In this document: positions 1-63,294 of the stretch, one piece after another
Layout of the letters: each line of letters opens with the position of its first letter
Numbering within the stretch: the stretch's first letter is position 1
From: Eimeria praecox
Lineage: Eukaryota
DNA: 64,000 nucleotides
Assembly: GCA_963920595.1 (NCBI GenBank)
Contig: OY986950.1
Span: forward strand, 5,084,001 to 5,148,000
Direction of reading: 5' to 3'
Program-made: the position numbers and the translations under genes
The notes under the pieces: generated by a model
Seen by the model: only the letters and a program-made list of their open reading frames with translations
What the model was told of the DNA's origin: nothing
Databases searched by the model: none

Positions 1-3000
1 TCATGCTGCACATTTGAAAAATGAGCTTCACGCTTCAGAGCGTGAGTGCAGTTGCAGCCCTCGAATCGCGTGCGTTATACATCTCCTTGCAGGTTGCATT
101 GTGGCTGGTGAATAATCCACAGGAGCTCGCCTGCGGTGGCTTCGTGTCCAGTTAGGAAGCCTCTGTTATGGGACATGCGTGTGGAAGAAACCGTCAAGCC
201 ATGCATCGACGCATACGACCTTCTTTTGCCGGCATCGCCCTGCTGCCGTGTCAACACTGTTGACTGAGTGCTCACGCCGGTTTTCTTGAAAGCAGCACGC
301 ACACGCAGGAGATCGTGCAGGAACGAACATCGTGTGTTTTGCTTTGGGCCTCTCACGGTTTGGCTGCAGATGCCAATGCACACTGCGACGAGGACGTCTG
401 TTTACGCTGCGCAGTCTGTTGTTTTTGGCAGGCGGTAAATGATGATGCATTCAATCGTGAAGGGACACTAGGATGCAGGGGCTCACTGTCATTGTAGAAG
501 TGCGCAGCGTGCCTCAGAAAGCTACTGATATTTCCTGTAGACGGCACAGCATATGTTCAGGCACCAGGGCATTACCGCTACGGTCTGTTTGCGCGGTAGT
601 GTGCATAAGCGAACTTTGATGTTCGTTTAGTTGGCTGTCGGGGCATGCGTTTCACTGGCTGTTGCCTGGTGTACTGGTTGACACCGGTAAAAGCTTGCGT
701 TTTTGTTCTTGCGATTGGACTCGTGAGCATGCTGTATATCCACGTGCGCTCGACTGCTGGCTAAGTAGTCAGCCTAACCTTTTGCTGCGTTGCGCTGTTG
801 TGTTGCATGATGCAGATTTACCTCGCTGTGTCTTCCAAAACCGAAATCCGTTTGCTTTTAGGTTGGCATAGATTGTACGTTCCTGCTGCTTACAGGACCT
901 GACTCGCTTGACGTATACCTACGGAGGACAGTCTGTAGGAGCTTTTGAAGGAGCTTTGGTCAGGTAGATCTTCTGTGGGGAGTGCCCATTCGCAGTTCAG
1001 CTCCACAGTGACTAACTTCGGATGTGCCTGACCATGTGCTTGACATGCTAGCTGGTTCTGAGTGAGAGTTCAACATTGATTCCCTTTTAGCTTCAGTAAG
1101 CATGAACACGTTACCTGATGAGATTCGCTGGGTTGGCCCATTGCACCTAGAGTGCGACGCTATAAGGATGAAGTTGGAGGAGCCTCCCTGTTAATTGTAC
1201 CAGCGCCGCGCCCTGCTGCTTGCTATGATTATCTTGCAGCTGGCACCAGATGCGTGGAAGGAGGAGCATCTCTATCAAGAGCTTAAACTCCCGCCTCCTG
1301 CGCATGCTTGCATCGGCTTGCACGATTCATTTTTTTGTGCACCGGGGTGGTTGGTGCAGCAAGAAGTGACCTTTGAGTAAAGCTCAGGATTACTTTGACT
1401 CTACTTAAGCTTGCGTCAGTGCTCTGTGTTGGTGGCAACTAAAGCTCTGCTGAATTCATGCCATCGGCTGACACTAATAAGCCGACTCAGTGCCGGGTTT
1501 TCATGACGGCGATGCGCTGATCGGTCAGCTGCGTGATCCGAGGCCAGCAAAGCCAAATGGGTGTGGAACCGAAAGTACTGCGCTGCGTTTGGCGTCGACG
1601 CCGACAGAAGCCCTCTTTTCTCTCTAGTGGCAGATGAGTGTGTGTAGTTACAGCCCTCAAAGCTGCTCGCTGCAGCACCTTATTTCGTTGGGGACCGAAG
1701 TACACGAGGTACAGCAAGTGAGTGAATGGCCACGTTAAACGCGATTTTAGGATGGAACGCCTTCGTCATCTGTTTAGCTGTGCCGGCTTCTCATTCAGCA
1801 TAGGTAATGCCATAGGCTGCTGCTATCAGGAATCTCAGTTGGGCGCAGCTGTTGTGTACTGATCATGGATGGTGGTAGGCAATGGACAAGCGAGCAAGTG
1901 TATCCGTGCTGGTTGCCATTTGACACGGGATTATGCAGGACAGCCGCAGCAGAGGCTGAAGAGCCAAATTGCGAATGACGCTCAGTTGTGTCTACGGCCT
2001 TGCATCTCCCTCTTCTGTGTCTATAGACGAAGATTCCTGGACACGCCGGCATTGCTTTTCGAGCTCGTGCTTGTCTGTGTGCTGCGTATCAATACTATGA
2101 CGCGCAGAAAACGCGAAATATCTTAACTCGCAGAAGCGCATGCACTGTGGTGGAGCTGCGCATTTTACAGTGACTGGCCTGGAAGGAACCGCCTAAGTTG
2201 TCTTTTCTGATGGGCTAAGTTGTCGGGTGCGACAGCCCAGAGGAAGAGATGATTCTTACGGAGAAGTGCATTCGGGTGTACTCAGGCCAAGCAAGCAGTG
2301 GTGGCAGCATGTCCTGTGGGTGCTGTTTTCCGTTGCGCGCGGGGTCTCAGGCTGTGCGTTAAAGCACCTTGCTGTTGGATTGGCGTTGCATTTGGGTGGT
2401 GCTGTCCAATAGAACAGTTGACGACCGGCGGGGATATAGCCAGGATTTGAGTTTTGTCGTATGCTGTATGCCGCTGCAGGCACCTCTGCCGCATGGTGCC
2501 CCACACGAAGCGTATTCACGTGCACGCAAGTAAACAGTACCGATCGATTATTCGTAAGCAGCGTTTTCCCATTTGAGAGAAAACGCATGCGCGGGATGTC
2601 GCGCTAGGTGCACTTCTGAAAAAAAGATTTAGATGACGTTTGCAAGGGGAAAGGGAGGATGTCAAGCAGCGAGTACGTATAAGCCCGATGTGTACAGCAA
2701 TCCATGGGCGAGGGCGTTTACCGCGGGTAAGGCTTGACTGCCAAGGTGGCGCGGGACAGCGGTGCATGTTAGCAAGAAGCTCGATCGGCGAAGGTAGTAC
2801 TTCTTGCTCGCTGTACCAAATTGGAAAATTGGATTTGCTTGAGTTTGTGGGGGTGGACGGACGAGCTACTTACCCCGTGCTGCCAATGCGAGATCTTGTT
2901 AGCTAGCAGGTGTTACGGGTAAAATGATGGTTTCCACACCAGCTTCCCCATTTGCGGATGGGAAGTCGGCGAAGTCCATATAAGCATTCGCCAAGCAACC

Positions 3001-6000
3001 TAATATCTAATTGATTCCTCTGCTGCTGGCGTGTGCTGCAACGCGTTCAAGCCAGCTTATAGGTATCCCGAATATCATGGGTTTGCGTTGCTGTTGATTT
3101 ATCAGTAGGCTTCAGGGTTGTTGCCCATTCAAATTTTTCAGTTCGTCGTACATAGTGGCCACGCTTACCACAGTGGACTTAGGGATTCATGGGTTGGGCA
3201 AATACAGGATGTGCGCGGACGTGGATATACACGATATACATGGTTCAAGATCTTAGCCAAGCATTCGAACGCGTCTCACGCCATGAAATTGCATAAGAAA
3301 CCCTTATGCACCTGTAGTCATTGTGGTTCCGTCCACGTACGAGCATCCTCAATGGAGGGATCAATTTCTTAACAGCTGGTGGCCGCTGTAAGCATGCGAA
3401 TTCCCCGAGGAATTTTAATCTGCAGGCAGTTGAGAATGCCCAGCCAGCGGGTCCATTGCTGCTGCAAGAATACACTAGCTGATCTTTCTATGCGTCGCTG
3501 CAATTTGTGCACCACGGTGCAAGAGATTAAGGGTAGACCACTGTTTCCTTAATCCTCCCAGCACAAAGCGAACGCGCACATCAGGGCTGTCATTTTGCGT
3601 CTGTCGCAGATCAGGAATGGGATTGTTGCTTCTTCACTTGCCGTTAGAAGCGGACACTTGCGAATGGATCGCGTTGGCTAGGCGTACTGGTTTTTTAGTG
3701 AAACTCTTTTTTAAATAGACAAAAGAACAGTTTCCGGGCCTCAATGCATTTCGAGGAGAACCAGCTAGCTCCGAATTCGATGCGCCCCGCGCCTTCCTCG
3801 TATGACATATGTGACGCTCGTGCTTCGCTGTTGTAGTCGTTGGCTTGTAGAGTGTCTTTGCTTCTGTATGTGCACGTTCGCTAGGCGATGAAGGGGCTAT
3901 AACCATTTTGTTGGGAGCAGGGTACCAGGAATAGTGGCTTTCGTTTAAAATCGGTTTGTGCTTCTCGCAGACAGGCACGAAAACGAGGTCATCATGCTGC
4001 ACATTTGAAAAATGAGCTTCACGCTTCAGAGCGTGAGTGCAGTTGCAGCCCTCGAATCGCGTGCGTTATACATCTCCTTGCAGGTTGCATTGTGGCTGGT
4101 GAATAATCCACAGGAGCTCGCCTGCGGTGGCTTCGTGTCCAGTTAGGAAGCCTCTGTTATGGGACATGCGTGTGGAAGAAACCGTCAAGCCATGCATCGA
4201 CGCATACGACCTTCTTTTGCCGGCATCGCCCTGCTGCCGTGTCAACACTGTTGACTGAGTGCTCACGCCGGTTTTCTTGAAAGCAGCACGCACACGCAGG
4301 AGATCGTGCAGGAACGAACATCGTGTGTTTTGCTTTGGGCCTCTCACGGTTTGGCTGCAGATGCCAATGCACACTGCGACGAGGACGTCTGTTTACGCTG
4401 CGCAGTCTGTTGTTTTTGGCAGGCGGTAAATGATGATGCATTCAATCGTGAAGGGACACTAGGATGCAGGGGCTCACTGTCATTGTAGAAGTGCGCAGCG
4501 TGCCTCAGAAAGCTACTGATATTTCCTGTAGACGGCACAGCATATGTTCAGGCACCAGGGCATTACCGCTACGGTCTGTTTGCGCGGTAGTGTGCATAAG
4601 CGAACTTTGATGTTCGTTTAGTTGGCTGTCGGGGCATGCGTTTCACTGGCTGTTGCCTGGTGTACTGGTTGACACCGGTAAAAGCTTGCGTTTTTGTTCT
4701 TGCGATTGGACTCGTGAGCATGCTGTATATCCACGTGCGCTCGACTGCTGGCTAAGTAGTCAGCCTAACCTTTTGCTGCGTTGCGCTGTTGTGTTGCATG
4801 ATGCAGATTTACCTCGCTGTGTCTTCCAAAACCGAAATCCGTTTGCTTTTAGGTTGGCATAGATTGTACGTTCCTGCTGCTTACAGGACCTGACTCGCTT
4901 GACGTATACCTACGGAGGACAGTCTGTAGGAGCTTTTGAAGGAGCTTTGGTCAGGTAGATCTTCTGTGGGGAGTGCCCATTCGCAGTTCAGCTCCACAGT
5001 GACTAACTTCGGATGTGCCTGACCATGTGCTTGACATGCTAGCTGGTTCTGAGTGAGAGTTCAACATTGATTCCCTTTTAGCTTCAGTAAGCATGAACAC
5101 GTTACCTGATGAGATTCGCTGGGTTGGCCCATTGCACCTAGAGTGCGACGCTATAAGGATGAAGTTGAAGGAGCCTCCCTGTTAATTGTACCAGCGCCGC
5201 GCCCTGCTGCTTGCTATGATTATCTTGCAGCTGGCACCAGATGCGTGGAAGGAGGAGCATCTCTATCAAGAGCTTAAACTCCCGCCTCCTGCGCATGCTT
5301 GCATCGGCTTGCACGATTCATTTTTTTGTGCACCGGGGTGGTTGGTGCAGCAAGAAGTGACCTTTGAGTAAAGCTCAAGATTACTTTGACTCTACTTAGG
5401 CTTGCGTCAGTGCTCTGTGTTGGTGGCAACTAAAGCTCTGCTGAATTCATGCCATCGGCTGACACTAATAAGCCGACTCAGTGCCGGGTTTTCATGACGG
5501 CGATGCGCTGATCGGTCAGCTGCGTGATCCGAGGCCAGCAAAGCCAAATGGGTGTGGAACCGAAAGTACTGCGCTGCGTTTGGCGTCGACGCCGACAGAA
5601 GCCCTCTTTTCTCTCTAGTGGCAGATGAGTGTGTGTAGTTACAGCCCTCAAAGCTGCTCGCTGCAGCACCTTATTTCGTTGGGGACCGAAGTACACGAGG
5701 TACAGCAAGTGAGTGAATGGCCACGTTAAACGCGATTTTAGGATGGAACGCCTTCGTCATCTGTTTAGCTGTGCCGGCTTCTCATTCAGCATAGGTAATG
5801 CCATAGGCTGCTGCTATCAGGAATCTCAGTTGGGCGCAGCTGTTGTGTACTGATCATGGATGGTGGTAGGCAATGGACAAGCGAGCAAGTGTATCCGTGC
5901 TGGTTGCCATTTGACACGGGATTATGCAGGACAGCCGCAGCAGAGGCTGAAGAGCCAAATTGCGAATGACGCTCAGTTGTGTCTACGGCCTTGCATCTCC

Positions 6001-8287
6001 CTCTTCTGTGTCTATAGACGAAGATTCCTGGACACGCCGGCATTGCTTTTCGAGCTCTTGCTTGTCTGTGTGCTGCGTATCAATACTATGACGCGCAGAA
6101 AACGCGAAATATCTTAACTCGCAGAAGCGCATGCACTGTGGTGGAGCTGCGCATTTTACAGTGACTGGCCTGGAAGGAACCGCCTAAGTTGTCTTTTCTG
6201 ATGGGCTAAGTTGTCGGGTGCGACAGCCCAGAGGAAGAGATGATTCTTACGGAGAAGTGCATTCGGGTGTACTCAGGCCAAGCAAGCAGTGGTGGCAGCA
6301 TGTCCTGTGGGTGCTGTTTTCCGTTGCGCGCGGGGTCTCAGGCTGTGCGTTAAAGCACCTTGCTGTTGGATTGGCGTTGCATTTGGGTGGTGCTGTCCAA
6401 TAGAACAGTTGACGACCGGCGGGGATATAGCCAGGATTTGAGTTTTGTCGTATGCTGTATGCCGCTGCAGGCACCTCTGCCGCATGGTGCCCCACACGAA
6501 GCGTATTCACGTGCACGCAAGTAAACAGTACCGATCGATTATTCGTAAGCAGCGTTTTCCCATTTGAGAGAAAACGCATGCGCGGGATGTCGCGCTAGGT
6601 GCACTTCTGAAAAAAAGATTTAGATGACGTTTGCAAGGGGAAAGGGAGGATGTCAAGCAGCGAGTACGTATAAGCCCGATGTGTACGGCAATCCATGGGC
6701 GAGGGCGTTTACCGCGGGTAAGGCTTGACTGCCAAGGTGGCGCGGGACAGCGGTGCATGTTAGCAAGAAGCTCGATCGGCGAAGGTAGTACTTCTTGCTC
6801 GCTGTACCAAATTGGAAAATTGGATTTGCTTGAGTTTGTGGGGGTGGACGGACGAGCTACTTACCCCGTGCTGCCAATGCGAGATCTTGTTAGCTAGCAG
6901 GTGTTACGGGTAAAATGATGGTTTCCACACCAGCTTCCCCATTTGCGGATGGGAAGTCGGCGAAGTCCATATAAGCATTCGCCAAGCAACCTAATATCTA
7001 ATTGATTCCTCTGCTGCTGGCGTGTGCTGCAACGCGTTCAAGCCAGCTTATAGGTATCCCGAATATCATGGGTTTGCGTTGCTGTTGATTTATCAGTAGG
7101 CTTCAGGGTTGTTGCCCATTCAAATTTTTCAGTTCGTCGTACATAGTGGCCACGCTTACCACAGTGGACTTAGGGATTCATGGGTTGGGCAAATACAGGA
7201 TGTGCGCGGACGTGGATATACACGATATACATGGTTCAAGATCTTAGCCAAGCATTCGAACGCGTCTCACGCCATGAAATTGCATAAGAAACCCTTATGC
7301 ACCTGTAGTCATTGTGGTTCCGTCCACGTACGAGCATCCTCAATGGAGGGATCAATTTCTTAACAGCTGGTGGCCGCTGTAAGCATGCGAATTCCCCGAG
7401 GAATTTTAATCTGCAGGCAGTTGAGAATGCCCAGCCAGCGGGTCCATTGCTGCTGCAAGAATACACTAGCTGATCTTTCTATGCGTCGCTGCAATTTGTG
7501 CACCACGGTGCAAGAGATTAAGGGTAGACCACTGTTTCCTTAATCCTCCCAGCACAAAGCGAACGCGCACATCAGGGCTGTCATTTTGCGTCTGTCGCAG
7601 ATCAGGAATGGGATTGTTGCTTCTTCACTTGCCGTTAGAAGCGGACACTTGCGAATGGATCGCGTTGGCTAGGCGTACTGGTTTTTTAGTGAAACTCTTT
7701 TTTAAATAGACAAAAGAACAGTTTCCGGGCCTCAATGCATTTCGAGGAGAACCAGCTAGCTCCGAATTCGATGCGCCCCGCGCCTTCCTCGTATGACATA
7801 TGTGACGCTCGTGCTTCGCTGTTGTAGTCGTTGGCTTGTAGAGTGTCTTTGCTTCTGTATGTGCACGTTCGCTAGGCGATGAAGGGGCTATAACCATTTT
7901 GTTGGGAGCAGGGTACCAGGAATAGTGGCTTTCGTTTAAAATCGGTTTGTGCTTCTCGCAGACAGGCACGAAAACGAGGTCATCATGCTGCACATTTGAA
8001 AAATGAGCTTCACGCTTCAGAGCGTGAGTGCAGTTGCAGCCCTCGAATCGCGTGCGTTATACATCTCCTTGCAGGTTGCATTGTGGCTGGTGAATAATCC
8101 ACAGGAGCTCGCCTGCGGTGGCTTCGTGTCCAGTTAGGAAGCCTCTGTTATGGGACATGCGTGTGGAAGAAACCGTCAAGCCATGCATCGACGCATACGA
8201 CCTTCTTTTGCCGGCATCGCCCTGCTGCAGTGTCAACACTGTTGACTGAATGTTCACGCCGGTTTTCTTGAAAGCAACACGTACGCG
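1..8287. repeat. Tandem duplication with a 3991-bp period: two full periods (1-3991, 3992-7982) plus a partial third (7983 to ~8287); may extend left of the window
   Basis: The sequence and the ORF track repeat at exactly +3991. Only about five substitutions were noticed between copies 1 and 2. The third copy is identical to ~8227, diverged to ~8287, then unrelated. Confidence 0.97.
39..8023 (+). CDS. Candidate micro-exons carried by the 3991-bp repeat
   Basis: Copy 1: AGC 39-41 (cag/gtgagt), GCG 432-434 (cag/gtaaat), ATT 872-874 (tag/gtacgt), CAA 1715-1717 (cag/gtgagt), GCT 2351-2353 (cag/gtgcgt), CGA 2670-2672 (cag/gtacgt), GAT 3208-3210 (cag/gtgcgc), 12-nt CTGGTGGCCGCT 3376-3387 (cag/gtaagc). 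Copy 2 (+3991): 4030, 4423, 4863, 5706, 6342, 6661, 7199, 7367-7378. Copy 3: AGC 8021-8023. Reads S-A-I-Q-A-R-D-LVAA per unit and may be incomplete. Confidence 0.55.
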
Positions 8288-11200
8288 TAGTAGAGCTTTC
8301 AACGGACAACAGGCTGTCTCCTCGTAGGTCGATGGAAATGGTGGCATGGCCAGCGCAAAGTTCTCTTCAGTGTCCTGTCGAACAGTAGCAATTGCAAGTG
8401 TTCTTGGCACGACGCGTGGCCCCTGGATGTGGTACTTCAATCATTTCATAGGATTTGGCTGGGGCGTCTGCGTGCCTTTGCATACTTTACATGGTCAGTT
8501 TGATGTGGCACAGACTCAAGTGGTGCACCAGCCTACAGTGATGTATATCTCCACGTAGCCACTAATAGCAGCTTGTGCGTTGTCATTGATGAGGAAGCCA
8601 AAGCCGACGAGCAGGCTTCAGAGGCGCATAGCCACTGTGGAGGGCCAGCTTCTCTTACAATTATTGTGATTGCCACTAGCTCGCAAATTGGAATCATGCA
8701 CCAGGATATCCAAGTAGTTCTACGTTTCGGGCCACCTTTAAAAAAAACCACGTTGATCGTCCTTTGGCCGGCTGTCGAGAAATCTGTTTGATTAGCTGAT
8801 GGGCGCCGGTTATCCTCTATAGCTATCCTTTGCCGTGTGTAGTGGCAGGAAGCGGTTGCACGTGGTGCTTATATCCGGATAACCCGTTTGATAATTACCG
8901 AAAGCAGGCTATGTGTCGCCTTGATAGCCCAATAGGCCACGTAGCCTGGGGACTATGACAGGTGGCTCGGGCACGATTTAGCTCGTTTCTAGCTAGCTGA
9001 GTAATTACAAACCTTCTGAGCCGGGTGGTTGAATTATCGGCACATCGTATGCTTTCTTTTTCAATAAGGCTGTGCGTTTCTATCCCCGGCAATACGTGTA
9101 TGCCTTTAAATGTAAGGGCGGCCCAGGAAAGCGGCGAAAATCATCTACGCCGTTGCTGGCTAACTTTGATGCTGTGCGTCTGGTTGCTTGAAGCGACAAT
9201 GAGCGACTTTAGTATATATAAACTGGCGTGCATGCTTGGTGAGTTGAGCTGAGGCATCTGGAGGACCCAAGCAGGTGGTTTGCTTAACGTGGAACTGAAC
9301 ATCTCGCCATTTGCCTGATTATGCTTGAGGTGCCGATGATCAACTGCGTCAAGCCCATCAAAGAGTGCTAACGTTAACTGCTTCCTGGCCCGTGTCGTAT
9401 TCCAGTGTTGTTCTGCATGCTTGTGCCTCCACCTAAACTAAAGACTGTGGGTCGTTAGCCAAGTTGAACTGAGTTTGATGCTCGTGTGCCTTAAGCCTGA
9501 GCCTACCCTATATTTTCTGCTGCATTCAAATGCTGAAGACGTTTACCGTTTTCCTCCTTCATCTGTATAGCGCGAACTTGCACTATTTCACTAACGCACT
9601 GGCAGCCATTGCGTAAACGAGCGAGTATTCTTGCTGTCGATTTGATTTCGCCATATTGCACGGAGCGCTGACTTCTAGGGGTGCTCCACCAGTGGTTACA
9701 AATGTCAAATTCGCCCGGTTACAACCAGCATGTTGTGGCTCGTTCACGCTTTCCTCCAGTAATGTTCACTGGGCCCAGCAGGCCTTGTGCTTTAAGGTGG
9801 CGTTTTTCCCTGCATCTTTAGATGGATGCTTGCGAATTCTTCATGAATTTGGAAACGGTTCCGTTGCTCGTGAAGCGCGGCGCCAACTACCAGCGTCCGA
9901 ACAACCAGGGAGACGCCCCAGTGGGATACTGGCCCTGCGCGTTATTTTGAGCGGCGTCGTACTCATAATTGTGACTCGTTCAGTGGCAGTTGCATTCTGG
10001 TGAGCCCTGTTCGCTCTGTAATAACTTCGTTAACTCAGGAAGTACGCAACTGCCTTGTTCCTATAACACAAGTCAAACATGGCTAGCCTTGTTGAACACA
10101 CACTGAGGTTGTCGTCTAACGATCGCGTGGTGCTTGTCATGCTCGAGCACTGCCCGTTCGAGATGCAGACAGCGGATTTATCGCTTGTTGGTGCTGCTAC
10201 TGTTTCCGGCTCTGCCAGCCTGATTTGAAGACAAGCGAAAGTACGTGGCCCTCCATCTTTGTATGGTAGCTTGCCTTCCCTGAGAGCGTGATTGCTCAGT
10301 TGTGCACTGAGGTAAGAATGTTTTTGCCACCAGCTTGGCTAAACGATTTTATCGAAGCTGCATTTTCAACAAGCGAAACCGGCGCCGGATATGTTGGGCG
10401 GGTGCTGGTTGACAGCCAGTTAAACTGGAACGCCTTTATCCATTGCAGGAATTGTGTCTGGAGTAGAGGAGCCATACACCCAGTTTAGCTTCCCTTTGCG
10501 TCGCATTTGCATTTATGCGCAATACGGAAAAATTGAAGCTGCATGCGCACGATGGCGTTGCACTTGTTGAACGCCGCTGGTAAGGCCCTCGAATGAAAAT
10601 GGCTACCAGGTTCCCCCTAAGCCAGTTACTGGCTTGGACATGATGGGGCTCCGCACCTGGACACTCACGCGGCTGCAGATTGTTCTGCCCACAACTTTGC
10701 ATTTCGATTTTGCTGTGTTACTAAGATAGAGAGCAAATTCTATGCTATTTCGCAATATAGCGAGTACGACAAGCTTCAACCTGTGCAGGAATGAACTTGC
10801 ATTCAGGCTCAGTCTAGCGATACTGACCCAATAAGAGCTGCTTCACCTTTTTAAGGCCATATTCATGGCTCCCTTTACCCCATCAAAGGCACTGCAGATT
10901 GCAGTAAATTCAAGATTTACTCTATAAGTGCGGAGATCGTCCTGAAACTCAGGGAAGGCTGCCTGTATCTTGAAAGAGCCAGCCTAGTAGGTCTTGGTAC
11001 CTAAAGCATGGCCTTTGGTTAACCTGGGCTTACTGGCAGATGCAAAACCCACTCAAGGGTGCTTCTCTCTAGAGGAGAAAGCCCCAGGGAGCCTTGTTCT
11101 CTGCTACTCGAGTTGCTTGGCTGGTGCTGTACGGAGAAACAGAGGCAAGCTTGCCTAAGCCTGATTCTTTGCTTCCGTTAGCATGCACAGGCTGAGGCCA

Positions 11201-53200: not shown

Positions 53201-56200
53201 GAGAGTGGGGTGTAGGCAATTCTGTCATGAAGCAGGATGCTGAGGTTTTGCGACTATCGGTTTCGGGAATACGAGATCAGGGCAAAACAGCTTCCTAGAC
53301 TGCGCGTTGTGTGATGCAGTGTCTTGTCAAGTTGGAATGAGGTTATGCCTATTTTTTTAGAGGTAGGTCTGAGTGTGCATGCCTTGATACTTGAGCAGCG
53401 ACTATGACGCTCGTTTGTTTGGCTAGCCAGATGCATTTGAAGTGCCACGGTGAGTTGCTTGTTCGGTTGTATGAGACGTTTGTTGATGGGTCTGTGTGTG
53501 GGCGTGCATGTATCCGTTATACCTCAGTCGCACAGTTTAGGCAGGCGGTTATTATTAGGAAAAGGCACAGTGTGAAGACAGCGGCCTCTCTGGCATGTGG
53601 TCGAGTTTGCCGCATTGGCTGGCAGGTCAGCCAGGTTCTTCACTAAGCAATGGACAGCTCAGAAGATTGTAAATCCGCGCCGTATGCAAATGATTGGCTG
53701 CGTGTGTGTCGCAGAGAGTACGATGGCTAGAGGCGTGTGCACCCTCAATGATATTGACAAAGCATTATGGCTTGGCGTAAATTGCGGTGATTTCGTACTC
53801 ACCTCGTGGGAGCCATTCGAAGCATCTTAGCATGCGTGCTACACGGGTGATACTTGGGAGTGCCAAAATGCGTGTTTGCATTCAGCAGAGCTTAGCGAAT
53901 ACCGTCACGACATCTAGGCAGCACCTACCGTTGTCTTCTGCCGGCGACTCATAATCAACCAGAGAATTGTTTGCAGCAAGGAACATCGTGCTTTGCATTG
54001 ATAGTCGCTTTAGGCGACGCGTCGACTACGTTCCAGGAAGTGCGATGCTATATCCTGCATTTGCATCCAGAGGAAAAACGCATAGGTTCTTGGGTGCCGG
54101 AGACGCGATATAAATTGCGGCATTCTCTGGCGAGACCAAACCAGAACGCCCATAAGGTACGCTGAGTGTTGCTCGCCACCATTGCAATAAAAGGACTGAC
54201 GTTGCAAGACACCGTGCTTCAGAGGTACGTGAAAGTGCTGAATGATAGAGGTTGTAGCTGATGGTTGAGGGCGCCTTTACCTTGGAGGACATGCGCGGTT
54301 GTGTGGGGGAAGCAGGCCAATGGCAGTGCGCAACGAATTTGCAGCCTTGGCGGAGTATGGGGTAGCTGGTGAAGGCGTCAATACAATACAATCATACGAC
54401 AGTGGAAGGCCGGTTGTGGAGCTGTTTTGCATGCCTCTGGCTAAGGGCCACGCTCGATGTGGCTTTTTGTGCCGGATGAACTGACGCTTGGTAGATTATT
54501 AATTGGCTGTAAGCATGGCGCCATGCTGGTGTTGCAGGTGTGGTTTGTCTACCTACGCTGCTGCATAAGCGTGGAATGATCTGCGCGTGCTAACGCGCTT
54601 TCCGCCGAGCAGCAGGGCATAATGGCACCGCGAGGCACTCCGGAGAGAGCATATCCGTTATATGTGTATAGCGTTTTGAATAGCAGATAGCAAACACAAG
54701 TAAAAGATCAACGGTGGAGTAGATTTCTCTGCGGCATGTTGGATGCAAGGGATACACTAGTGTGGCGCGGAGGGGCGAAACCGATATATTGGAGAGAGCA
54801 GGCCCTTTTGTGGGACGTAGAGAGTCGAAGGATCTGACATTAGGTACACACCCTACAAGGGCCACGATTTTCTGGAGCAGAGCGTACGATGCGTCGTCAT
54901 GTATGCAGCATCGTTGTCCAGTTCAAGGCATCCACCTCAGCAGAGACGCTGGAGAGTCAATCTCTATCATGCCCATACTAACCCATGCGTTGCATTCGAA
55001 CGTTAGTATAGGTAGCTTTGAAGCGCAGCGTGATGCGTGTGGAAGTTGAATATAGGTTATGGAATCGTGTTTGGACAGGCGGTGCATGCCATGCTTGTTT
55101 TCGGGTGTTTCCGGCAATAGCGGTGTACTGGTATAGCATATCGGTGGCGGGGACGTGATTTATACAGTGCCAAAATAGCTATTTTGTTTACTAGATAGTG
55201 CGTGCAGACCAGAGGCATGCGCCTGGACTAGAACAGATGCCTTGTACTAAGTGCCGGAAGCAAGTGATGCTTGGGCTCTTCCTTTAGCGCTGCTGGGAGC
55301 GCTGATCTGTGTACGGTGAGGTTGCGTATGCTGGGTCATGGGGTGTTAGGGTTTCTTGTGAGAGTGGACCCTGCAGAGGGTGTTGGCAACTGCGTGCAAA
55401 CGTCCACGTCAGGGCGTTTGGTTTTAGGGCACGGCAGCGGTCGTTAACGAGCTTTTTCTCCTTTGTGAGCGTGAGCGCAAACATTATCAAGGCAAGGATT
55501 CCATGTTTGCAGGCCTCCAGAAGATCGCCGGTGTCCGTAGAGTAGGCTGCGCCAAACGTATTGTTTGATTTGAAGGAGAGGATGGCTGAATATGAGGGTG
55601 GGGTGCAGACCGTTCCGTCATGAAGCAGGATGTTGAGGTTTTGCAACTATGTGTTTCGGACATATCAGATCAGGGCGAAACGGCTTCCTAGAATGCGCTT
55701 TGTGTGATGCAGTGTCTTGTCAAGTTGGAATGAGGTTATGCCTCTATTTTTATAGGTAGGTCTGAGTTTGCATTTCGTGACACTTGAGCAGCTGCTATGA
55801 CGGCTCGTTTGTTTGGCTGGCAAGATGCATTTGAACTGCCACGGTGAGTTGTTTGTTCGGTTGTATGCGACGTTTGTTGATGGGTCTGTGTGTGCGTGTG
55901 CATGTATCCGTGTATAGATCAGTCACACAGTTCAGGCAGGCAGTTATTAACGGCAAAAGGCACAGCGTGAGGATAAGGGCCTCTCTGGCATGTGGTCGGG
56001 TTTGCCGCATTGACTGGCAGGACAGCCAGGCCCTTTGCTAGGCAATGAGCAGCTCAGAATATTGTAAAGCCAAGGCCTGTGCTCCCCTGTAGATTTGGCT
56101 CACTTCGTAGTCGCATCAGGGGCGTCATTCCACGCGTTTTAGGACACACGGTACGGTACTGATACTGAGGAGCAGCAAAATGCGTGCTTGCATCCAGCTG

Positions 56201-59200
56201 TGTGTAGGCGACACCGTCAAAGCATGGAGGCATAACAAAAAGGTGTTGTCGTTAGGCAATTCGCGAACAACCAGAAATTATCTTAAAGCCACTAATGCAC
56301 TGCGCTGGTTTCTCACTCTTCTGATGCGCCACATCGACTACGTTTCAGGCAGTGCGCAGACACCTCCGAGGCTGTTTCCAGACGAACGATGTCAAGGTTC
56401 TTGGGCGCGGGAGACGCGATATTAATTGCGGCATTCTCTGGCGAGACCAAGCCAGAAGGCCCATAAGGTACGCTGAGTGTTGCTCGCCACCATTGCAATA
56501 AAAGGACTGACATTACAAGACACCGTGCTTCAGAGGTACGTGAAAGTGCTGAATGATAGAGGTTGCAGCTGATGGTTGAGGGCGCCTTTACCTTGGAGGA
56601 CATTCTCGGTTGTGTGGGGGAAGCAGGCCAGTGGCAGTGCGCAACGAATTTGCAGCCTTGGCGGAGTATGGGGTAGTTGGTGAAAGCGTCAATACAGTAC
56701 GGGCATACGACAGTGGACGGCCCGTAGTGGAGCTGTTTTGCATGCCTCTGGCTAAGGGCCACGCTCGATGTGGCTTTTTGTGCCGGATAAACTGACGCTT
56801 GGTAGATTATTAATTGGCTGTAAGCATGGCGCCATGCTGGTTTTGCAGGTGTGGTTTGTCTACCTACGCTGCTGCATAAGCGTGGAATGATCTGCGCGTG
56901 CTAACGCGCTTTCCGCCGAGCAGCAGGGCATAATGGCACCGCGAGGCACTGATGGAAAAGCATATCCGTTATGTGTGTATAGCGTTTTGAATAGCAGATA
57001 GCAAACACAAGTAAAAGATCAACGGTGGAGTAGATTTCTCTGCGGCATGTTGGATGCAAGGGATACAGTAGTGTGGCGCGGAGGGGCGAAACCGATATAT
57101 TGGAGAGAGCAGGCCCTTTTGTGGGACGTAGAGAGTCGAAGGATCTGACATTAGGTACACACCCTACAAGGGCCACGATTGTCTGGAGCAGAGCGTACGA
57201 TGCGTCGTCATGTATGCAGCATCGTTGTCCAGTTCAAGGCATCCAACTCAGCAGAGACGCTGGAGAGTCAATCTCTATCATGCCCATACTAACCCATGCG
57301 TTGCATTCGAACTTTAGTATAGGTAGCTTTGAAGCGCAGCGTGATGCGTGTGGAAGTTGAATATAGGTTGTGGAATCGTGTTTGGACAGGCGGTGCATGC
57401 CATGCTTGTTTTCGGGTGTTGCCGGCATAGGATTGTACAGCATGCGCTACTCGGGCCGTTCCATGCGCAGCGCCAAAGTAGCTAGCTTGCCTGCTAGCTA
57501 GTCTGCGCCGACAAAGCGCATCCGTCTTCAGCATAGCTAATGCCTTACTGTTGCACGTAATAAGCCAGTGCTGCTTCTTCTTTAGGTCTATCTGTGTGGC
57601 GAACAACGGCAGGCGTGGTGTACCGTGAGGTTCAGCATGCTGCATAAGGGTGCTTTAGGTGTTGTGAGGAGATTCGACCCTGCAGGCGGCGCTGGCAAGG
57701 GCCCGCAGACGTGGACGTCGGTGCATTTGTTTTGGGGTACCGCAGCTGTGGCTATCAAGGTTTTTCTCCTTTGTGAGCGTGAGCGCAAACATTATCACGG
57801 CAAGTATGCCATGTTTGCGAGGCACGAGAAGATCACGGGTGCCCGTAGGGTGTCCGTAGAGTAGGCTGTGCCAAACGTATTGTTTGCTTTGAAGGAGGGG
57901 ATGGCTGAATATGAGAGTGGGGTGTAGGCAATTCTGTCATGAAGCAGGATGCTGAGGTTTTGCGACTATCGGTTTCGGGAATACGAGATCAGGGCAAAAC
58001 AGCTTCCTAGACTGCGCGTTGTGTGATGCAGTGTCTTGTCAAGTTGGAATGAGGTTATGCCTATTTTTTTAGAGGTAGGTCTGAGTGTGCATGCCTTGAT
58101 ACTTGAGCAGCGACTATGACGGCTCGTTTGTTTGGCTAGCCAGATGCATTTGAAGCGCCATGGTGAGTTGTTTGTTCGGTTGTATGAGACGTTTGTTGAT
58201 GGGTCTGTGTGTGGGCGTGCATGTATCCTTGTATAGCTCAATTACGCAGTTCAGGCAGGTGGTTGTAAATCGCAAAAGGCACAGTGTGAAGACAGCGGCC
58301 TGTCTGGCATGTGGTCGAGTTTGCCGCATTGGCTGGCAGGTCAGCCAGGTTCTTCACTAAGCAATGGACAGCTCAGAAGATTGTAAATCCGCGCCGTATG
58401 CAAATGATTGGCTGCGTGTGTGGCGTAGACAGTACGATGGCTAGAGGCGTGCTCAACCTCATTGATATTGACAAAGCATTATGGTTTGCCGTAAATTGTG
58501 GTGATTTCGTATTCGCCTCGTTAGGCCCATCCGAAGCGTCCTAGGAGGCAAGCTTCGCGGGCGTTATTCGGGAGCACTAAAGTGCGTATTTGCATTCAGC
58601 AGAGCCTAATGGACACCTTCACAACACGCAGGAATCACTAAACGGTGTTAACATTGGGCGATTCACGATCAAACAAAAACTAGGTTACAGCCAGGAACGC
58701 AGTTCACCGCATTGGTACTGCCGTTACGCAGCAAATTGACTGCGTTCCAGCGAGTGAGCAGGCACATCCTACCGCTGCTTCGGGACGGACGACGTCATGT
58801 ATGACAAGGGCCTTTCTGCCGGTTGAACTGATGTTTGGAAGATTATTAATTGGCTGTAAGCATGGCGCCATGCTGGTTTTGCAGGTGTGGTTTGTCTACC
58901 TACGCTGCTGCATAAGCGTGGAATGATCTGCGCGTGCTAACGCGCTTTCCGCCGAGCAGCAGGGCATAATGGCACCGCGAGGCACTGATGGAAAAGCATA
59001 TCCGTTATGTGTGTATAGCGTTTTGAATAGCAGATAGCAAACACAAGTAAAAGATCAACGGTGGAGTAGATTTCTCTGCGGCATGTTGGATGCAAGGGAT
59101 ACAGTAGTGTGGCGCGGAGGGGCGAAACCGATATATTGAAGAGAGCAGGCCCTTTTGTGGGACGTAGAGAGTCGAAGGATCTGACATTAGGTACACACCC

Positions 59201-62200
59201 TACAAGGGCCACGATTGTCTGGAGCAGAGCGTACGATGCGTCGTCATGTATGCAGCATCGTTGTCCAGTTCAAGGCATCCAACTCAGCAGAGACGCTGGA
59301 GAGTCAATCTCTATCATGCCCATACTAACCCATGCGTTGCATTCGAACGTTAGTATAGGTAGCTTTGAAGCGCAGCGTGATGCGTGTGGAAGTTGAATAT
59401 AGGTTGTGGAATCGTGTTTGGACAGGCGGTGCATGCCATGCTTGTTTTCGGGTGTTGCCGGCATAGGATTGTACAGCATGCGCTACTCGGGCCGTTCCAT
59501 GCGCAGCGCCAAAGTAGCTAGCTTGCCTGCTAGCTAGTCTGCGCCGACAAAGCGCATCCGTCTTCAGCATAGCTAATGCCTGACTGTTGCACGTAATAAG
59601 CCAGTGCTGCTTCTTTTTTAGGTCTATCTGTGTGGCGAACAACGGCAGGCGTGGTGTACCGTGAGGTTCAGCATGCTGCGTAAGGGTGCTTTAGGTGTTG
59701 TGAGGAGATTCGACCCTGCAGGCGGCGCTGGCAAGGGCCCGCAGACGTGGACGTCGGTGCATTTGTTTTGGGGTAACGCAGCTGTGGCTATCAAGTTTTT
59801 TCTCCTTTGTGAGCGTGAGCGCAAACATTATCACGGCAAGTATGCCATGTTTGCGAGGCACGAGAAGATCACGGGTGTCCGTAGGGTGTCCGTAGAGTAG
59901 GCTGTGCCAAACGTATTGTTTGCTTTGAAGGAGGGGATGGCTGAATATGAGAGTGGGGTGTAGGCAATTCTGTCATGAAGCAGGATGCTGAGATTTTGCG
60001 ACTGTCGGTTTCGGGAATACGAGATCAGGGCAAAACAGCTTCCTAGACTGCGCGTTGTGTGATGCAGTGTCTTGTCAAGTTGGAATGAGGTTATGCCTAT
60101 TTTTTTAGAGGTAGGTCTGAGTGTGCATGCCTTGATACTTGAGCAGCGACTATGACGGCTCGTTTGTTTGGCTGGCAAGATGCATTTGAAGCGCCATGGT
60201 GAGTTGTTTGTTCGGTTGTATGAGACGTTTGTCATTGGGTCTGTGTGTGGGCGTGCATGTATCCTTGTATAGCTCAATTACGCAGTTCAGGCAGGTGGTT
60301 GTAAATCGCAAAAGGCACAGTGTGAAGACAGCGGCCTGTCTGGCATGTGGTCGAGTTTGCCGCATTGGCTGGCAGGCCAGCCAGGTTCTTCACTAAGCAA
60401 TGGATAGCACAGAAGATTGTAAATCCGCGCCGTATGCAAATGATTGGCTGCGTGTGTGTCGCAGAGAGTACGATGGCTAGAGGCGTGCTCAACCTCATTC
60501 GTGTTTGCAGAGATCTGTTCTGCTGTAAAAGATTTCAGACTTTGCAGCCGCATCGCGGACATCATGCGATGCGTGTTAGGATGTATGCTACGCTGCCAGT
60601 ATTGGGGAGGACAATGTTTCATGCATGCGTTGAAGAGGGTCCAAACAAATGGTTCTAGACACCCACCACGAGATGGTGTTACCTTTAGGCGATCCATGAC
60701 CAGCGAGATGCAGGCTTAGAGAGAGCAGCATCGTGCATTGCCCTGCTACTACTCTGAGGCGATACATCGACTACGTTCCAGCGAGTGCGCTGATATGTGC
60801 TGCGTCTTTTGTGTGTCCAGCATAAGGATGTCTAGGGGCTTAGTCGCCGGAAACGCGATGTTGTTTGTAGCGCTTTTGAGAGAACAGAACCCAGGAGGCC
60901 TATAACGTACGGTGAGTGTTGCTCGCCACCACAGCAGTAAAAGGACTGGCGTTACAAGACGCCATGCTTCAGGCACACGTGAAAGTGCTGAATGAAGGAG
61001 GTTGAAGCTGGTGGTTGAGGGCGCCTGTACCTGGGAGGGCATGCGCAAACGCGTGTCAAACGCACGGCTCTGGCAGCCTTCATCGAAGCTGGAGTCCTCG
61101 AGGCGTGTGCGGTTAACATGGCAGTGGCAAAAGTATATCCTACAGTGGATGGCCGGTAGTAGAGCTGTTTTGCCTGGGTCTCGCTACGGGCGATGCTCGA
61201 TATGGCCTTTTGTATCAGTTGAACGGATGCTTGGTAGGTTATTAATTGGTTGTAAGCATGGCGCCATGCTGGTGTTGCAGGTGCGGTTTGCCTACCTTCG
61301 CTGCTGCATAAGCGTGGAATGATCTGCGCGTGCTAACGCGCTTTGCGCCGAGCAGCATGGCATAACGGCACCGCGAGGCACTCATGGAAGACCATATCGG
61401 TTAGGTGTATATAGCGTTTTGAATAGCAGATGGAGAACACAAGGGAATCATCAACGGCGAGGTAGATATATCTGTGGCGTGGTGAGTGCAAGGGATACAG
61501 TAGTAGGGCGCGGGGGGGCCAAACAGATATATTGGGGAGATCAGGGCCCCTTGTGGGACGTATAGCGCCGAATGGGCTGATGTGAGGTTCACACCCTACA
61601 AGGGCCACGATTTTCTGGAGCAGAGTGTACGTGGCGTCGCCTTGAATTTAGTAGCGTTGTCCAGTTCAAGATATCGAACAGAGCATCCTTCGCTACTATG
61701 ACCACACTAGTAAATGCGTTGCATTCGAATGTTAGCATAGGTAGCTTTGAAGGGCAGCGTGATGCGTGTGGAAGTTGAATATAGGTTATGGGATCGTGTT
61801 TGGAGAGGTGGCTCATGCCATGTCTGTTCTGAAGAGAAGCCGGGAATAGGGTTGTAACGTTGCAGCATGCGTAGCTAGGAACGTCATTTATACAGGGGTA
61901 GAGTTGCTACCTTGCCTGCTAGTTTGTGCGTGCCGATCAGAAGCCTCTGCCCCCACTAGAACGCATGCCTTATAGTCGCAGGGCATAGGCTGATGGCGGT
62001 TTTGCTTTTCGTATCCTGCTGCTGAGAACGCCAGCAGGTATACAGTAATCGTGTGTCTGCTGCATAATGGTGTTTTAGGTGTAGTGAGCACATTGGACCT
62101 TGCATGCGGTATTGGCAAGCGCGTGCAAACGTCGACGTCAGCGCATTTGATTTGGGGTACCGCAGGTGTGGCTCGCAAGTTCTTTCAAGTTCTTTCTCCT

Positions 62201-63294
62201 TTGTGAGCGTGAGCGCAAACGTTATCAAGGCAAGGATTCCATGTTTGCGAGGAACGCGGAGATCACCGGTGTACGTAGAGTAGGCTGTGCCAAACGTCAT
62301 GCTTGCTTTGAAGGAGCGGAAGGCTGAATATGAGGGTGGGGTGCAGACCGTTCCGTCATGAAGCAGGATGTTGAAATTTTGCGACTACCTGCTTCGGACA
62401 TATCAGATCAGGGCGAAGCGGCTTCCTAGCTTGCGCGTTGTCTGTTCGAGCCTCTTGTCAAGTTGGAGTGAGGTTATGCCTCTATTTTTATAGGTAGGTC
62501 TGAGTGTGCAAGTCGTGACACTTGAGCAGCTGGTATGACGGCTCGTTTGTTTGGCTGGCAAGATGCATTTGAACTGCCACGGTGAGTTGTTTGTTCGGTT
62601 GTATGAGACGTTTATTAATGATTCTGTGTGTGCGTGAGCATGCATCCGTGTATACGTCGATCACACAGTTCAGGCAGCCGGTTATTAATAGCAAAAGGCA
62701 CAGTGTGAGGATAACGGCCTATCTGGCATGTGGTCGGATTTTGCCGCATTGACCGGCATAGCGGCGATTATCGTCTCTACGTAATTAGGTGCTTGCAAGG
62801 ATGTGAAATCTCCTGCTTGGCGTGTCCTTACGTGAGCGTGGTACAGGGTGTACGATGGCTAGAGACGTCTGCATCATCATTGGTCTATGGAGAGCACTAT
62901 GTTCTGCTGTAGAGCATCTCAAGGTTCGCAGGCGTGGTGTGAACGTCATGCGCTGCGTGTTAGAAGGCATGCTTTCCTCACAAAAGGGAGAGCGCAATGC
63001 CTCCCGTTCAGGTTGACAAAGGGCTTGGGCGACAAAGTAGAAACAGCCAGCTAGCACCAAACATAGCTCTCTCTTGGCGCTCCATGACGCACCAGATGCA
63101 GGTCTAGAGCAAGAAGCATCGTGCATTGCCTTGCTACTACTCTTAGGCGACACATCGGCTACGTTTCAGCGAGTGCTCTGATATGTACTGCGTCGTTTGT
63201 GTGTCCAGAAGAAGGATATATAGGGGCTTAGGAGCGGGAAACGCGAGGTTGCTTGTAGCGCTTTTGAGAGAACAGAACCCAGGAGGCCTATAAC
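39..63294 (+). CDS. Putative giant micro-exon gene (internal portion), made of ~130 candidate 3-nt single-codon exons plus a few 12-nt exons; predicted Ala/Glu/Arg/Gln/Lys-rich helical or coiled-coil-like protein
   Basis: Recurrent (C/T/A)AG-NNN-GT(A/G)NG on the + strand, e.g. tcagGAAgtacgc 10039, tcagGCAgtaagc 21063 and 22971, tcagGCGgtaagc 27678. About 79 sites lie in the non-repetitive 8.3-38.5 kb, against roughly 7-11 expected if bases were uniform (about 1 per 2.7-4.1 kb). No stop codons were noted among the triplets and 51 of 79 encode Ala or Glu. Gene ends are not visible, and more than one gene is possible. Confidence 0.75.
9069..18200 (+). CDS. Run of 18 candidate 3-nt micro-exons reading AEREALEAERAQEVKAQL
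   Basis: First base of each: GCT 9069, GAA 10039, CGA 10761, GAG 11385, GCT 11933, CTT 12609, GAA 14048, GCA 14858, GAA 15198, CGA 15922, GCA 16058, CAA 16666, GAA 16829, GTT 16891 (very short upstream intron, doubtful), AAA 17259, GCC 17413, CAA 18014, TTA 18198. Each is flanked by AG and GT(A/G)NG. Spacing is wider and less regular here, so a few may be chance hits. Confidence 0.6.
19348..24022 (+). CDS. Dense run of 19 candidate 3-nt micro-exons reading ATVEAAAAAAAAEEAAKRA
   Basis: GCA 19348, ACA 19532, GTT 19806, GAA 20061, GCG 20350, GCT 20644, GCA 20879, GCA 21063, GCT 21213, GCA 21472, GCT 21743, GCA 22113, GAA 22415, GAA 22687, GCA 22971, GCT 23160, AAA 23439, AGA 23720, GCA 24020. 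Implied introns are 147-367 nt. Only 1-2 such sites are expected by chance in 4.7 kb. Confidence 0.82.
24217..26512 (+). CDS. Sparse candidate micro-exons (P, E, A, A)
   Basis: CCA 24217 (cag/gtgcgc), GAA 24798 (cag/gtgagc), GCG 26044 (cag/gtacgc), GCG 26510 (cag/gtgaga). The gaps contain weaker or decayed-looking sites, such as tgcatcagGGTgtcatg at 25351. Confidence 0.5.
27678..38472 (+). CDS. Run of 38 candidate 3-nt micro-exons reading AAAREARKAAEAAAQTPIREALTYQLAAAAQEAVAEEE
   Basis: First bases: 27678, 27969, 28260, 28526, 28790, 28886, 29171, 29424, 29535, 30203, 30463, 30570, 30822, 31073, 31357, 31480, 31584, 31867, 32103, 32338, 32806, 33085, 33297, 33531, 33774, 34105, 34344, 34662, 34870, 35394, 35890, 36191, 36492, 36783, 37380, 37551, 37805, 38470. 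All match AG-NNN-GT(A/G)NG and most are 200-330 bp apart. Confidence 0.75.
35870..37620. repeat. Old diverged duplication: ~35870-35955 resembles ~37530-37615, each centred on a micro-exon candidate
   Basis: ggtacagCAAgtgtgtagcaaagtgtcgcggctgctcagcactgagc vs ggtacagGAAgtgtgtggcaaagcggtgtggctggtcagcactgcgc; offset 1661. Confidence 0.7.
38990..39128. repeat. ~140-bp segment also present at ~40523-40661 and ~44559-44697; marks the left edge and a rearrangement junction of the array
   Basis: tctttagacgattcacattcaaagg...ctgacggcgagtgcgcatatg occurs three times. After 39128 the sequence jumps to the block matching 43166. Confidence 0.9.
39130..46226. repeat. Direct repeat of ~3.06 kb (39130-42190 and 43166-46226, offset 4036) separated by ~1 kb of different sequence
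   Basis: Identical ORFs at +4036 (39290/43326, 39909/43945, 40978/45014). The copies are near-identical apart from a divergent patch at 41745-41780 vs 45781-45816. Confidence 0.95.
40335..63294 (+). CDS. Candidate micro-exons at homologous positions of the ~2.0-2.4-kb repeat units
   Basis: Site a: CGT 41496/45532, AGT 49031, AGC 52480/54881/57192/59228, AGT 61624. Site b: TTC 46910, TTA 50417, CTA 52786, ATA 55195, CTA 57498/59534, TTT 61923. Site c: AGA 40335/44371, GGT 47837, ACA 51333, AGA 53715, ACA 58429, AGA 60465, GGT 62847. Site d: CGA 48160, GAA 51636/54037, GCA 56349, CGA 58751/60782/63170. 12-nt site e: 51744, 54145, 56456, 60895, 63283. Others: CAA 41755, CCT 45791, CAA 49290, AGT 41951/45987/49486, CGA 42275. 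Confidence 0.65.
45436..51237. repeat. Direct repeat of ~2.3 kb (~45436-47740 and ~48935-51237, offset 3499-3507)
   Basis: ORF pairs 45840/49339, 46269/49768, 46988/50495 and 47046/50553, plus direct sequence identity with diverged ends. Confidence 0.92.

What the first reader, a model, noticed from the sequence alone, without database searches (positions are those of the whole stretch)
39..63294. A gene apparently written one codon per exon: >60 kb array of 3-nt micro-exons
Seen: about 130 + strand sites of acceptor-triplet-donor (AG-NNN-GTRNG), often regularly spaced. The non-repetitive 30 kb holds ~79 of them against ~7-11 expected from uniform base composition. I noticed no comparable series on the - strand, though I only spot-checked it. 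The triplets are sense codons, 51/79 Ala or Glu, and vary mainly at the third base. Established: micro-exon genes with short symmetric exons (Schistosoma MEGs) and isolated 3-nt exons exist. I do not know of a described gene made of ~100 or more consecutive single-codon exons, but novelty needs a literature check. Inference: under 1% of the DNA is coding, the gene would be invisible to ORF finders and spliced aligners, and any subset of exons can be skipped without frameshift. That would allow residue-by-residue isoform diversity in a helical protein.
Basis: partly seen in the sequence, partly recalled or inferred. Interest (0 to 1): 0.97.

Follow-up and report, generated by a model that had tools for sequence, protein, structure and literature searches.

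The report
Over 100 one-codon exons in series
A 63-kb stretch of an unidentified eukaryote carries about 110 intact splice-signal pairs, each framing exactly three bases, which are likely exons that spell a helical protein segment one amino acid at a time; this gene design is known from the black truffle but is several times larger here, and its splicing is inferred, not yet seen in RNA.

Summary
YAG-NNN-GTRNG occurs 131 times on + against 6 on - and 22 in shuffles, so about 110 sites are genuine, not 130. In the unique core (19.3-38.5 kb) 66 sites lie about 260 nt apart. They share an ancestral flank, so they arose by tandem duplication of an intron-plus-codon cassette, and the intron interiors have since diverged. 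The six splice-critical bases are kept (53 intact sites against 4 one-step mutants, control level), while neighbouring bases are only 35-73% conserved. The triplets behave like codons: no stop in 149, glycine 2 against 11 expected, helix formers enriched. Best reading: real single-codon coding exons of one very long gene whose ends lie outside the window. Splicing was not observed, and the protein is unidentified. The design is not categorically new: Tuber melanosporum nank genes have tens of alternatively spliced 3-bp exons (Iotti 2012, seen through citing papers). This scan also noted such arrays before in other genomes (14-55 exons). New here are the scale, the age and the amino-acid-level signal. 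Residue-by-residue isoform shuffling is untested, and a weak helical charge pattern favours in-order inclusion.

The parts
19346..38478 (+). Core array C: 66 predicted 3-nt exons (57 by matrix score, 9 added by hand because they are in register), median spacing 260 nt, shortest 96, unique sequence. AG positions: 19346,19530,19804,20059,20348,20642,20877,21061,21211,21470,21741,21964,22111,22413,22685,22969,23158,23437,23718,24018,24215,24796,26042,26508,27575,27676,27967,28258,28524,28788,28884,29169,29422,29533,30201,30461,30568,30820,31071,31355,31478,31865,32101,32336,32579,32804,33083,33295,33529,33772,34103,34342,34660,34868,35102,35392,35692,35888,36189,36490,36781,37240,37378,37549,37803,38468; the exon is bases +2 to +4 from each.
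8570..18206 (+). Segment B: 23 pattern matches (about 16-19 genuine), median spacing 450 nt, unique sequence, flanks weakly related to the core consensus
   Evidence: flank score above shuffled controls, p=0.002
1..8294 (+). Segment A: head-to-tail duplication of a 3991-nt block (99.7% identical) with 7 pattern matches per copy; the array runs off the window's left end
39552..63178 (+). Segment D: 41 pattern matches in nested 2.0-4.0-kb block duplications (mostly 75-99% identical). Four site families keep AG and GT in all 24 copies aligned; two other families are mostly broken; the repeat runs off the right end
24669..24679 (+). Decayed unit (AC in place of AG); other decayed units at 25349, 25624 and 34032 lie in the longer gaps of the core
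47519..47529 (+). Representative of a dead site family in segment D: donor CT in 6 of 7 correctly anchored copies, GT only at 62528
21454..21485 (+). Exon-centred island that, with 22104-22136, is matched by one other high-depth contig whose flanks do not align: a second array elsewhere in the same genome

Best explanation
The window is likely the inside of one very long + strand pre-mRNA in which about 110 three-base exons, separated by GT-AG introns of 100-1300 nt, would be spliced together to encode a predicted Ala/Glu/Arg-rich alpha-helical segment one residue per exon. Shown: the sites, their spacing, their shared ancestral flank, the selective retention of the splice bases, and codon-like structure in one frame. 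Inferred: (1) the array grew by tandem duplication of an intron-plus-codon cassette, long ago in the core and recently as 2-4-kb blocks at both ends; (2) introns are recognised across the intron (intron definition), since a 3-nt exon cannot hold both complexes; (3) because every exon is one whole codon, units can be gained, lost or skipped without a frameshift, so rod length and sequence evolve by birth and death of exons; (4) most core exons are included in order, with some skipping possible. The start, the end and any folded domain lie outside the window.
For: Enrichment only at k=3 and only on +. Scoring flanks alone, 22 of the 26 best sites keep AG and GT and the other 4 are at control level. 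At flank score >=3, 53 intact sites against 4 one-step mutants (controls 2 and 3), although the other positions are only 35-73% conserved. No k=3 excess for GC, GA, GTY or non-G +5 donors. In block copies AG 0/124 and GT 0/124 pairwise mismatches against 0.30-0.39 in flanks and 0.43 in triplets. Stops 0 of 133 against 3.0 expected (p=0.027); Gly 2 against 11.4 (0 of 20000 permutations); joined frames hold 0, 6 and 10 stops. Core: helix formers 58 of 70 against 42.5. Coupling of triplet bases 1 and 2 is the strongest of 19 pairs tested (p=0.0005). Opposite charges at i+3/i+4 are enriched (p=0.006-0.03). G and T skew on + throughout. A published precedent shows that such exons can be spliced.
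Against: No branch-point or pyrimidine-tract signal upstream of the acceptors (CTRAY 7 of 101 against 9.9 expected), and the organism's normal splice consensus is unknown. No ordinary coding exon, start or domain in the window, so neither a single gene nor a protein identity is shown. Codon patterns could partly reflect shared ancestry of units, which the permutations ignore. The charge test is uncorrected (18 tests per set). Segment D has dead site families and weaker enrichment at 38.6-43.1 kb. The block families were picked because some copies carried the motif, which inflates AG/GT conservation there.
Confidence: 0.75

Rival explanations
1. The exons are real, but the array works mainly as a diversifier: each transcript includes a different small subset, as reported for Tuber nank genes, and no full-length helix is made. 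This is a variant of the best explanation, not exclusive of its first half.
For: Only frame 0 survives arbitrary skipping; triplets in block copies diverge at least as fast as introns (0.43 vs 0.39); precedent.
Against: In-order i+3/i+4 charge pattern (weak); low-complexity Ala-rich content offers little diversity; triplets are not clearly faster than neutral.
Confidence: 0.3
2. The sites are functional splice signals but not coding: stepping stones for removing one giant intron in pieces, with the triplets discarded, or exons of a non-coding RNA.
For: No ordinary coding exon in 64 kb; strong selection on splice bases alone.
Against: Recursive sites abut (k=0), which is not enriched; stop and glycine avoidance and base 1-2 coupling need a codon-level cause.
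Confidence: 0.08
3. The motif is the conserved box of an old satellite or a protein-binding site spaced about every 260 nt, and its likeness to splice sites is coincidence.
For: Regular spacing and shared flanks; no branch-point signal.
Against: The invariant bases are exactly AG, GT, +3 R and +5 G with a free triplet between; strict strand bias; codon-level structure.
Confidence: 0.06
4. The array is a recently dead relic of a once-spliced gene.
For: Broken families in segment D and a few decayed units in the core.
Against: Only 4 one-step mutants against 53 intact core sites, so any loss of function must be very recent.
Confidence: 0.07
5. The introns are insertions of an intron-generating transposon (introner) into a once continuous coding sequence, not tandem duplicates.
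For: Shared sequence at both intron ends beyond the splice bases.
Against: No pairing between intron ends (p=0.6-0.98); the triplets themselves share one consensus, as expected if the codon was copied with the intron; exact 3-nt spacing; tandem block duplication is visible in segments A and D.
Confidence: 0.04

Closest known systems
[quoted passage not shown] 2012, not held; seen only as passages in PMC4986451, PMC9815663, PMC3689799, PMC13449251)
   Same: Tens or dozens of 3-bp, one-codon exons in one gene, frame-neutral when skipped.
   Different: Here about 110 or more sites over at least 63 kb; no NACHT or ankyrin sequence in the window; alternative splicing untested; the residues show helix-type constraint. 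I could not see the truffle genes' intron lengths or exon counts.
Schistosoma micro-exon genes, MEGs (PMC8293314, passages)
   Same: Coding region made mainly of short symmetric exons; skipping keeps the frame; growth by duplication.
   Different: MEG exons are up to 36 bp and of mixed size, and the products carry signal peptides; here all are 3 nt, and no N-terminus is visible.
Isolated 1-3-nt exons (plant APC11 and VPS55, PMC8831610 passages; MAP4K5, PMC8632122 listing; RPS24, listings; Amphidinium, PMC12584245 passage)
   Same: Show that spliceosomes can include exons this small.
   Different: Single exons or at most a few, not long series.
Unpublished arrays noted earlier by this scan in other genomes (14-55 one-codon exons, several behind RING/B-box, HET or surface-protein genes)
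   Same: Same cassette layout.
   Different: 1-6 kb, often with near-identical introns; this one is ten times longer than those and its core introns are almost fully diverged. Those notes are unchecked.

Membership tests
Tuber nank-type codon-sized mini-exon arrays | Tens of consecutive 3-bp exons bounded by canonical splice sites | tested here: met
   At DNA level only:
Tuber nank-type codon-sized mini-exon arrays | Alternative splicing of the mini-exons | not testable with these tools
   Needs RNA reads; see Tried and rejected
Tuber nank-type codon-sized mini-exon arrays | Host gene is a NACHT-ankyrin NLR | tested here: inconclusive
   No Pfam family above its cut-off in 299 ORFs, but the gene ends are outside the window and no genome is held
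Schistosoma MEGs | Mainly short (<=36 bp) symmetric exons | tested here: met
   All predicted exons are 3 nt; no other size from 0 to 45 nt is enriched
Schistosoma MEGs | Signal peptide, secreted or surface product | not testable with these tools
   N-terminus not in the window
Schistosoma MEGs | Raised dN/dS | tested here: inconclusive
   Triplets diverge like introns in segment D; in the core one-step changes from GCA are 14 synonymous to 15 non-synonymous
Introner elements (definition recalled) | Near-identical introns with paired ends | tested here: not met
   Core intron interiors barely alignable (mean z 0.37); no end pairing
Recursive (ratchet) splice sites | Acceptor directly followed by donor (k=0) | tested here: not met
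   k=0: 4 sites against 81 at k=3 in the unique 30 kb

The most novel reading that the evidence does not exclude
One gene splices more than 110 consecutive single-codon exons, mostly in order, into a long helical rod whose length is tuned one residue at a time by gain and loss of intron-plus-codon cassettes. It would be the longest such chain I could find described, old enough for its introns to have lost most similarity, present in further copies in the genome, and one case of a gene architecture that annotation has missed in many eukaryotes.
Probability: 0.4. Interest if true: 0.9.

Novelty: new variant of a known kind. Interest (0 to 1): 0.74.

Why it matters
If spliced, under 1% of more than 60 kb is coding, and the gene is invisible to ORF finders and to spliced aligners. 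It would be an extreme test of intron definition: over 100 adjacent introns must be removed with three bases between them, which makes splicing order and fidelity directly measurable. It would also extend codon-sized exon arrays from truffle immune receptors to a large, old array under protein-level constraint, and it shows birth and death of single-residue exons within one locus.

Tried and rejected
No RNA holder listed: two runs of one sample and one study hold the stretch, neither on record as RNA; this says nothing about expression. Both give even cover like DNA and may be the window's own source, so they are not independent support. No whole genome is held, so flanking exons and the normal splice consensus could not be read. 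Pfam: 299 ORFs (193 on + of at least 55 aa, 106 on - of at least 75 aa; duplicated blocks 1-3990, 43.2-46.2 kb and 52-62 kb left out) gave one hit below its cut-off (DZR, E=0.0064). Rfam: none. Metagenome scan with a degenerate 20-base consensus: 81 loci, none with an array; the 5 BLAST matches cover only the motif, so they are treated as chance. Hairpins across the exon or across the intron: not supported. Branch point or pyrimidine tract: not found. Other exon sizes and GC or GA donors: no excess. Tandem Repeats Finder sees only one 48-nt repeat. In one search one row (52788) and three rows of the two broken families (40003, 47953, 56153) were mis-anchored; the figures and the rates for those two families are not used. 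The depth-2.9 relative's differences were below the listing threshold, so conservation of the sites in it could not be tested. The spliced peptide was not searched or folded, which leaves its relatives unknown. The Iotti 2012 paper is not held; its text and supplements may give exon counts that bear on the size comparison. Literature searches for longer chains; none beyond the truffle case was listed, within open-access holdings only.
Full report
Observation. The pattern YAG-N3-GTRNG occurs 131 times on the + strand and 6 times on the - strand; other spacings from 0 to 30 give 13-39 on +. Dinucleotide shuffles give 22.3+-5.4, or 33.8+-6.5 against 149 when A is also allowed before AG, so about 110-115 sites are genuine. 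In the unique 8.6-38.6 kb there are 81 against 9.1+-2.8. Five of six regions tested are enriched; 38.6-43.1 kb is not significant with the YAG pattern. A weight matrix gives 60 sites at k=3 and 0-3 at any other k or on - (trained on these sites, so partly circular).

Anatomy. Segment A (1-8294) is a 3991-nt tandem duplication at 99.7% identity; B (8.3-19.3 kb) and C (19.3-38.6 kb) are unique; D (39-64 kb) consists of nested 2.0-4.0-kb block duplications. In C, 66 sites (57 by score, 9 added by hand) have a median spacing of 260 nt, with 75% of gaps at 170-340 nt against 25% at random. Spacing is wider in A, B and D (medians 636, 450, 400). No ordinary gene or RNA family was found. G and T are in excess on + along the whole window. 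The organism is an unidentified eukaryote of about 51% GC; the donor consensus is GTRYGC/GTAAGC, and no pyrimidine tract or branch motif is detectable.

Origin. The consensus extends from about -11 to +16 around the splice bases, more than splice signals require, and flanks in B and D score above controls on the core matrix (p=0.002 and 0.00015; A not significant, n=7). Interiors of 37 core introns are barely alignable (mean z 0.37 over 666 pairs, 23 above 3; control -0.08, 1 of 194 above 3). This fits old tandem duplication of an intron-plus-codon cassette, with recent block duplication at both ends. Intron ends do not pair, which argues against an introner origin (definition recalled).

Selection on splice bases. 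This is the main evidence. Scoring only the flanks, 22 of the 26 best positions keep AG and GT, and the remaining 4 match the controls (6 and 1). Requiring five of six key bases, there are 53 intact sites and 4 one-step mutants (controls 2 and 3), while the other positions are 35-73% conserved. Neutral decay at even 73% would give about twice as many one-step mutants as intact sites (my arithmetic). Relaxed donors show no k=3 excess. In four site families of segment D (24 copies), AG and GT never differ (0/124 each) while flanks differ at 0.30-0.39 and triplets at 0.43; these families were chosen by motif, so this is weaker. Two other families in D are mostly broken, one block copy lacks a site by deletion, and a few decayed units fill long gaps in C: exons are also lost.

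Codon-level signal. None of 149 triplets is a stop; among 133 distinct sites 3.0 were expected (p=0.027), and glycine occurs twice against 11.4. Joined in order, the three frames hold 0, 6 and 10 stops. In C (70 matches), Ala 30, Glu 11, Arg 6; Gly 0 against 3.8, Pro 3 against 7.2, helix formers 58 against 42.5. GGA is one step from both commonest codons yet absent. Bases 1 and 2 of the triplet are the most strongly coupled of 19 pairs. Opposite charges at i+3/i+4 are enriched (11 vs 6.3, p=0.030; 12 vs 5.9, p=0.006; 14 vs 8.5, p=0.025; uncorrected), which weakly favours in-order inclusion in a helix. Shared ancestry among units can mimic part of this.

Reads. The two runs that hold the stretch are contigs of one sample with even cover and may be the source of the window. 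In X1, a contig of depth about 482 matches only 21454-21485 and 22104-22136, and one of depth about 498 only a short piece ending at 29548 and 35880-35905. All four pieces are centred on predicted exons, so further arrays likely exist elsewhere in this genome. Records of depth about 2.9 are colinear with 20.9-23.0 kb at 80-84% identity (39/197, 25/160, 109/636, 139/895 differences), probably a related organism in the run; their differences were not listed.

Mechanism. Inferred: each intron is recognised across its own length, the model proposed for exons too small for exon definition (PMC8378409, passages), and introns are removed one after another so that the growing exon lengthens by a codon each time. 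Whole-codon exons make duplication, loss and skipping frame-neutral. The product is predicted to be a helical rod or spacer of at least 110 residues inside a larger protein. Earlier scan notes place similar arrays behind RING/B-box/coiled-coil, HET and surface-protein genes, and one reports three such exons spliced in order in a homologue's transcripts; these are unchecked leads.

Comparison. Four papers (passages read: PMC4986451, PMC9815663, PMC3689799, PMC13449251) state that Tuber melanosporum nank genes have tens or dozens of alternatively spliced codon-sized exons, citing Iotti 2012, which I could not open. Schistosome MEGs use symmetric exons up to 36 bp (PMC8293314, passages). Single 1-3-nt exons are documented (PMC8831610 and PMC12584245, passages; PMC8632122 and RPS24 papers, listings). 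Ten searches listed no chain near 100. The locus works like the truffle arrays in layout but cannot be filed as a nank gene or a MEG.

Verdict. The feature is real and most likely a functional array of single-codon exons (0.75). It is a new, much larger and older variant of a known but obscure design, awaiting RNA proof. Interest 0.74; 0.9 if more than 110 exons are shown to be spliced in order.

Noticed in passing
window 46991-47039 and 50498-50546: A near-perfect 49-nt palindrome (hairpin) present in two block copies and absent from the other five aligned copies.
   Followed up: no
window 20922-22964 (run X1): Low-depth (about 2.9) colinear records at 80-84% identity, probably a related species or strain in the same run; an outgroup for testing conservation.
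   Followed up: partly
window 21454-21485, 22104-22136, up to 29548, 35880-35905, up to 27983: Other contigs of the same run match only short exon-centred islands (depth about 480-500 where given), pointing to more arrays in the genome.
   Followed up: partly
window 51447, 53829, 58543, 60578, 62962: A site family about 115 nt after another site whose copies have GC, GT or broken signals; the GC copies could be GC-AG introns or decay.
   Followed up: partly
window 1-8294: 3991-nt tandem duplication at 99.7% identity that starts before the window; not checked against reads, so recent duplication and assembly artefact are not told apart.
   Followed up: no
window 39552-62845: Triplets in segment D encode a different residue mix (Arg, Ser, Phe, Tyr, Leu, Gly) from the Ala/Glu core, so it may encode a different kind of segment.
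   Followed up: no
window 26795: Single T>C difference between the window and both runs, possibly an assembly error or a variant.
   Followed up: no
window 28557-28604: Two-copy 24-nt tandem repeat inside a core intron.
   Followed up: no
whole window: TGCAG is 200 on + against 123 on -, and AATAAA 4 against 17, both as expected for the sense strand of a long transcript.
   Followed up: no
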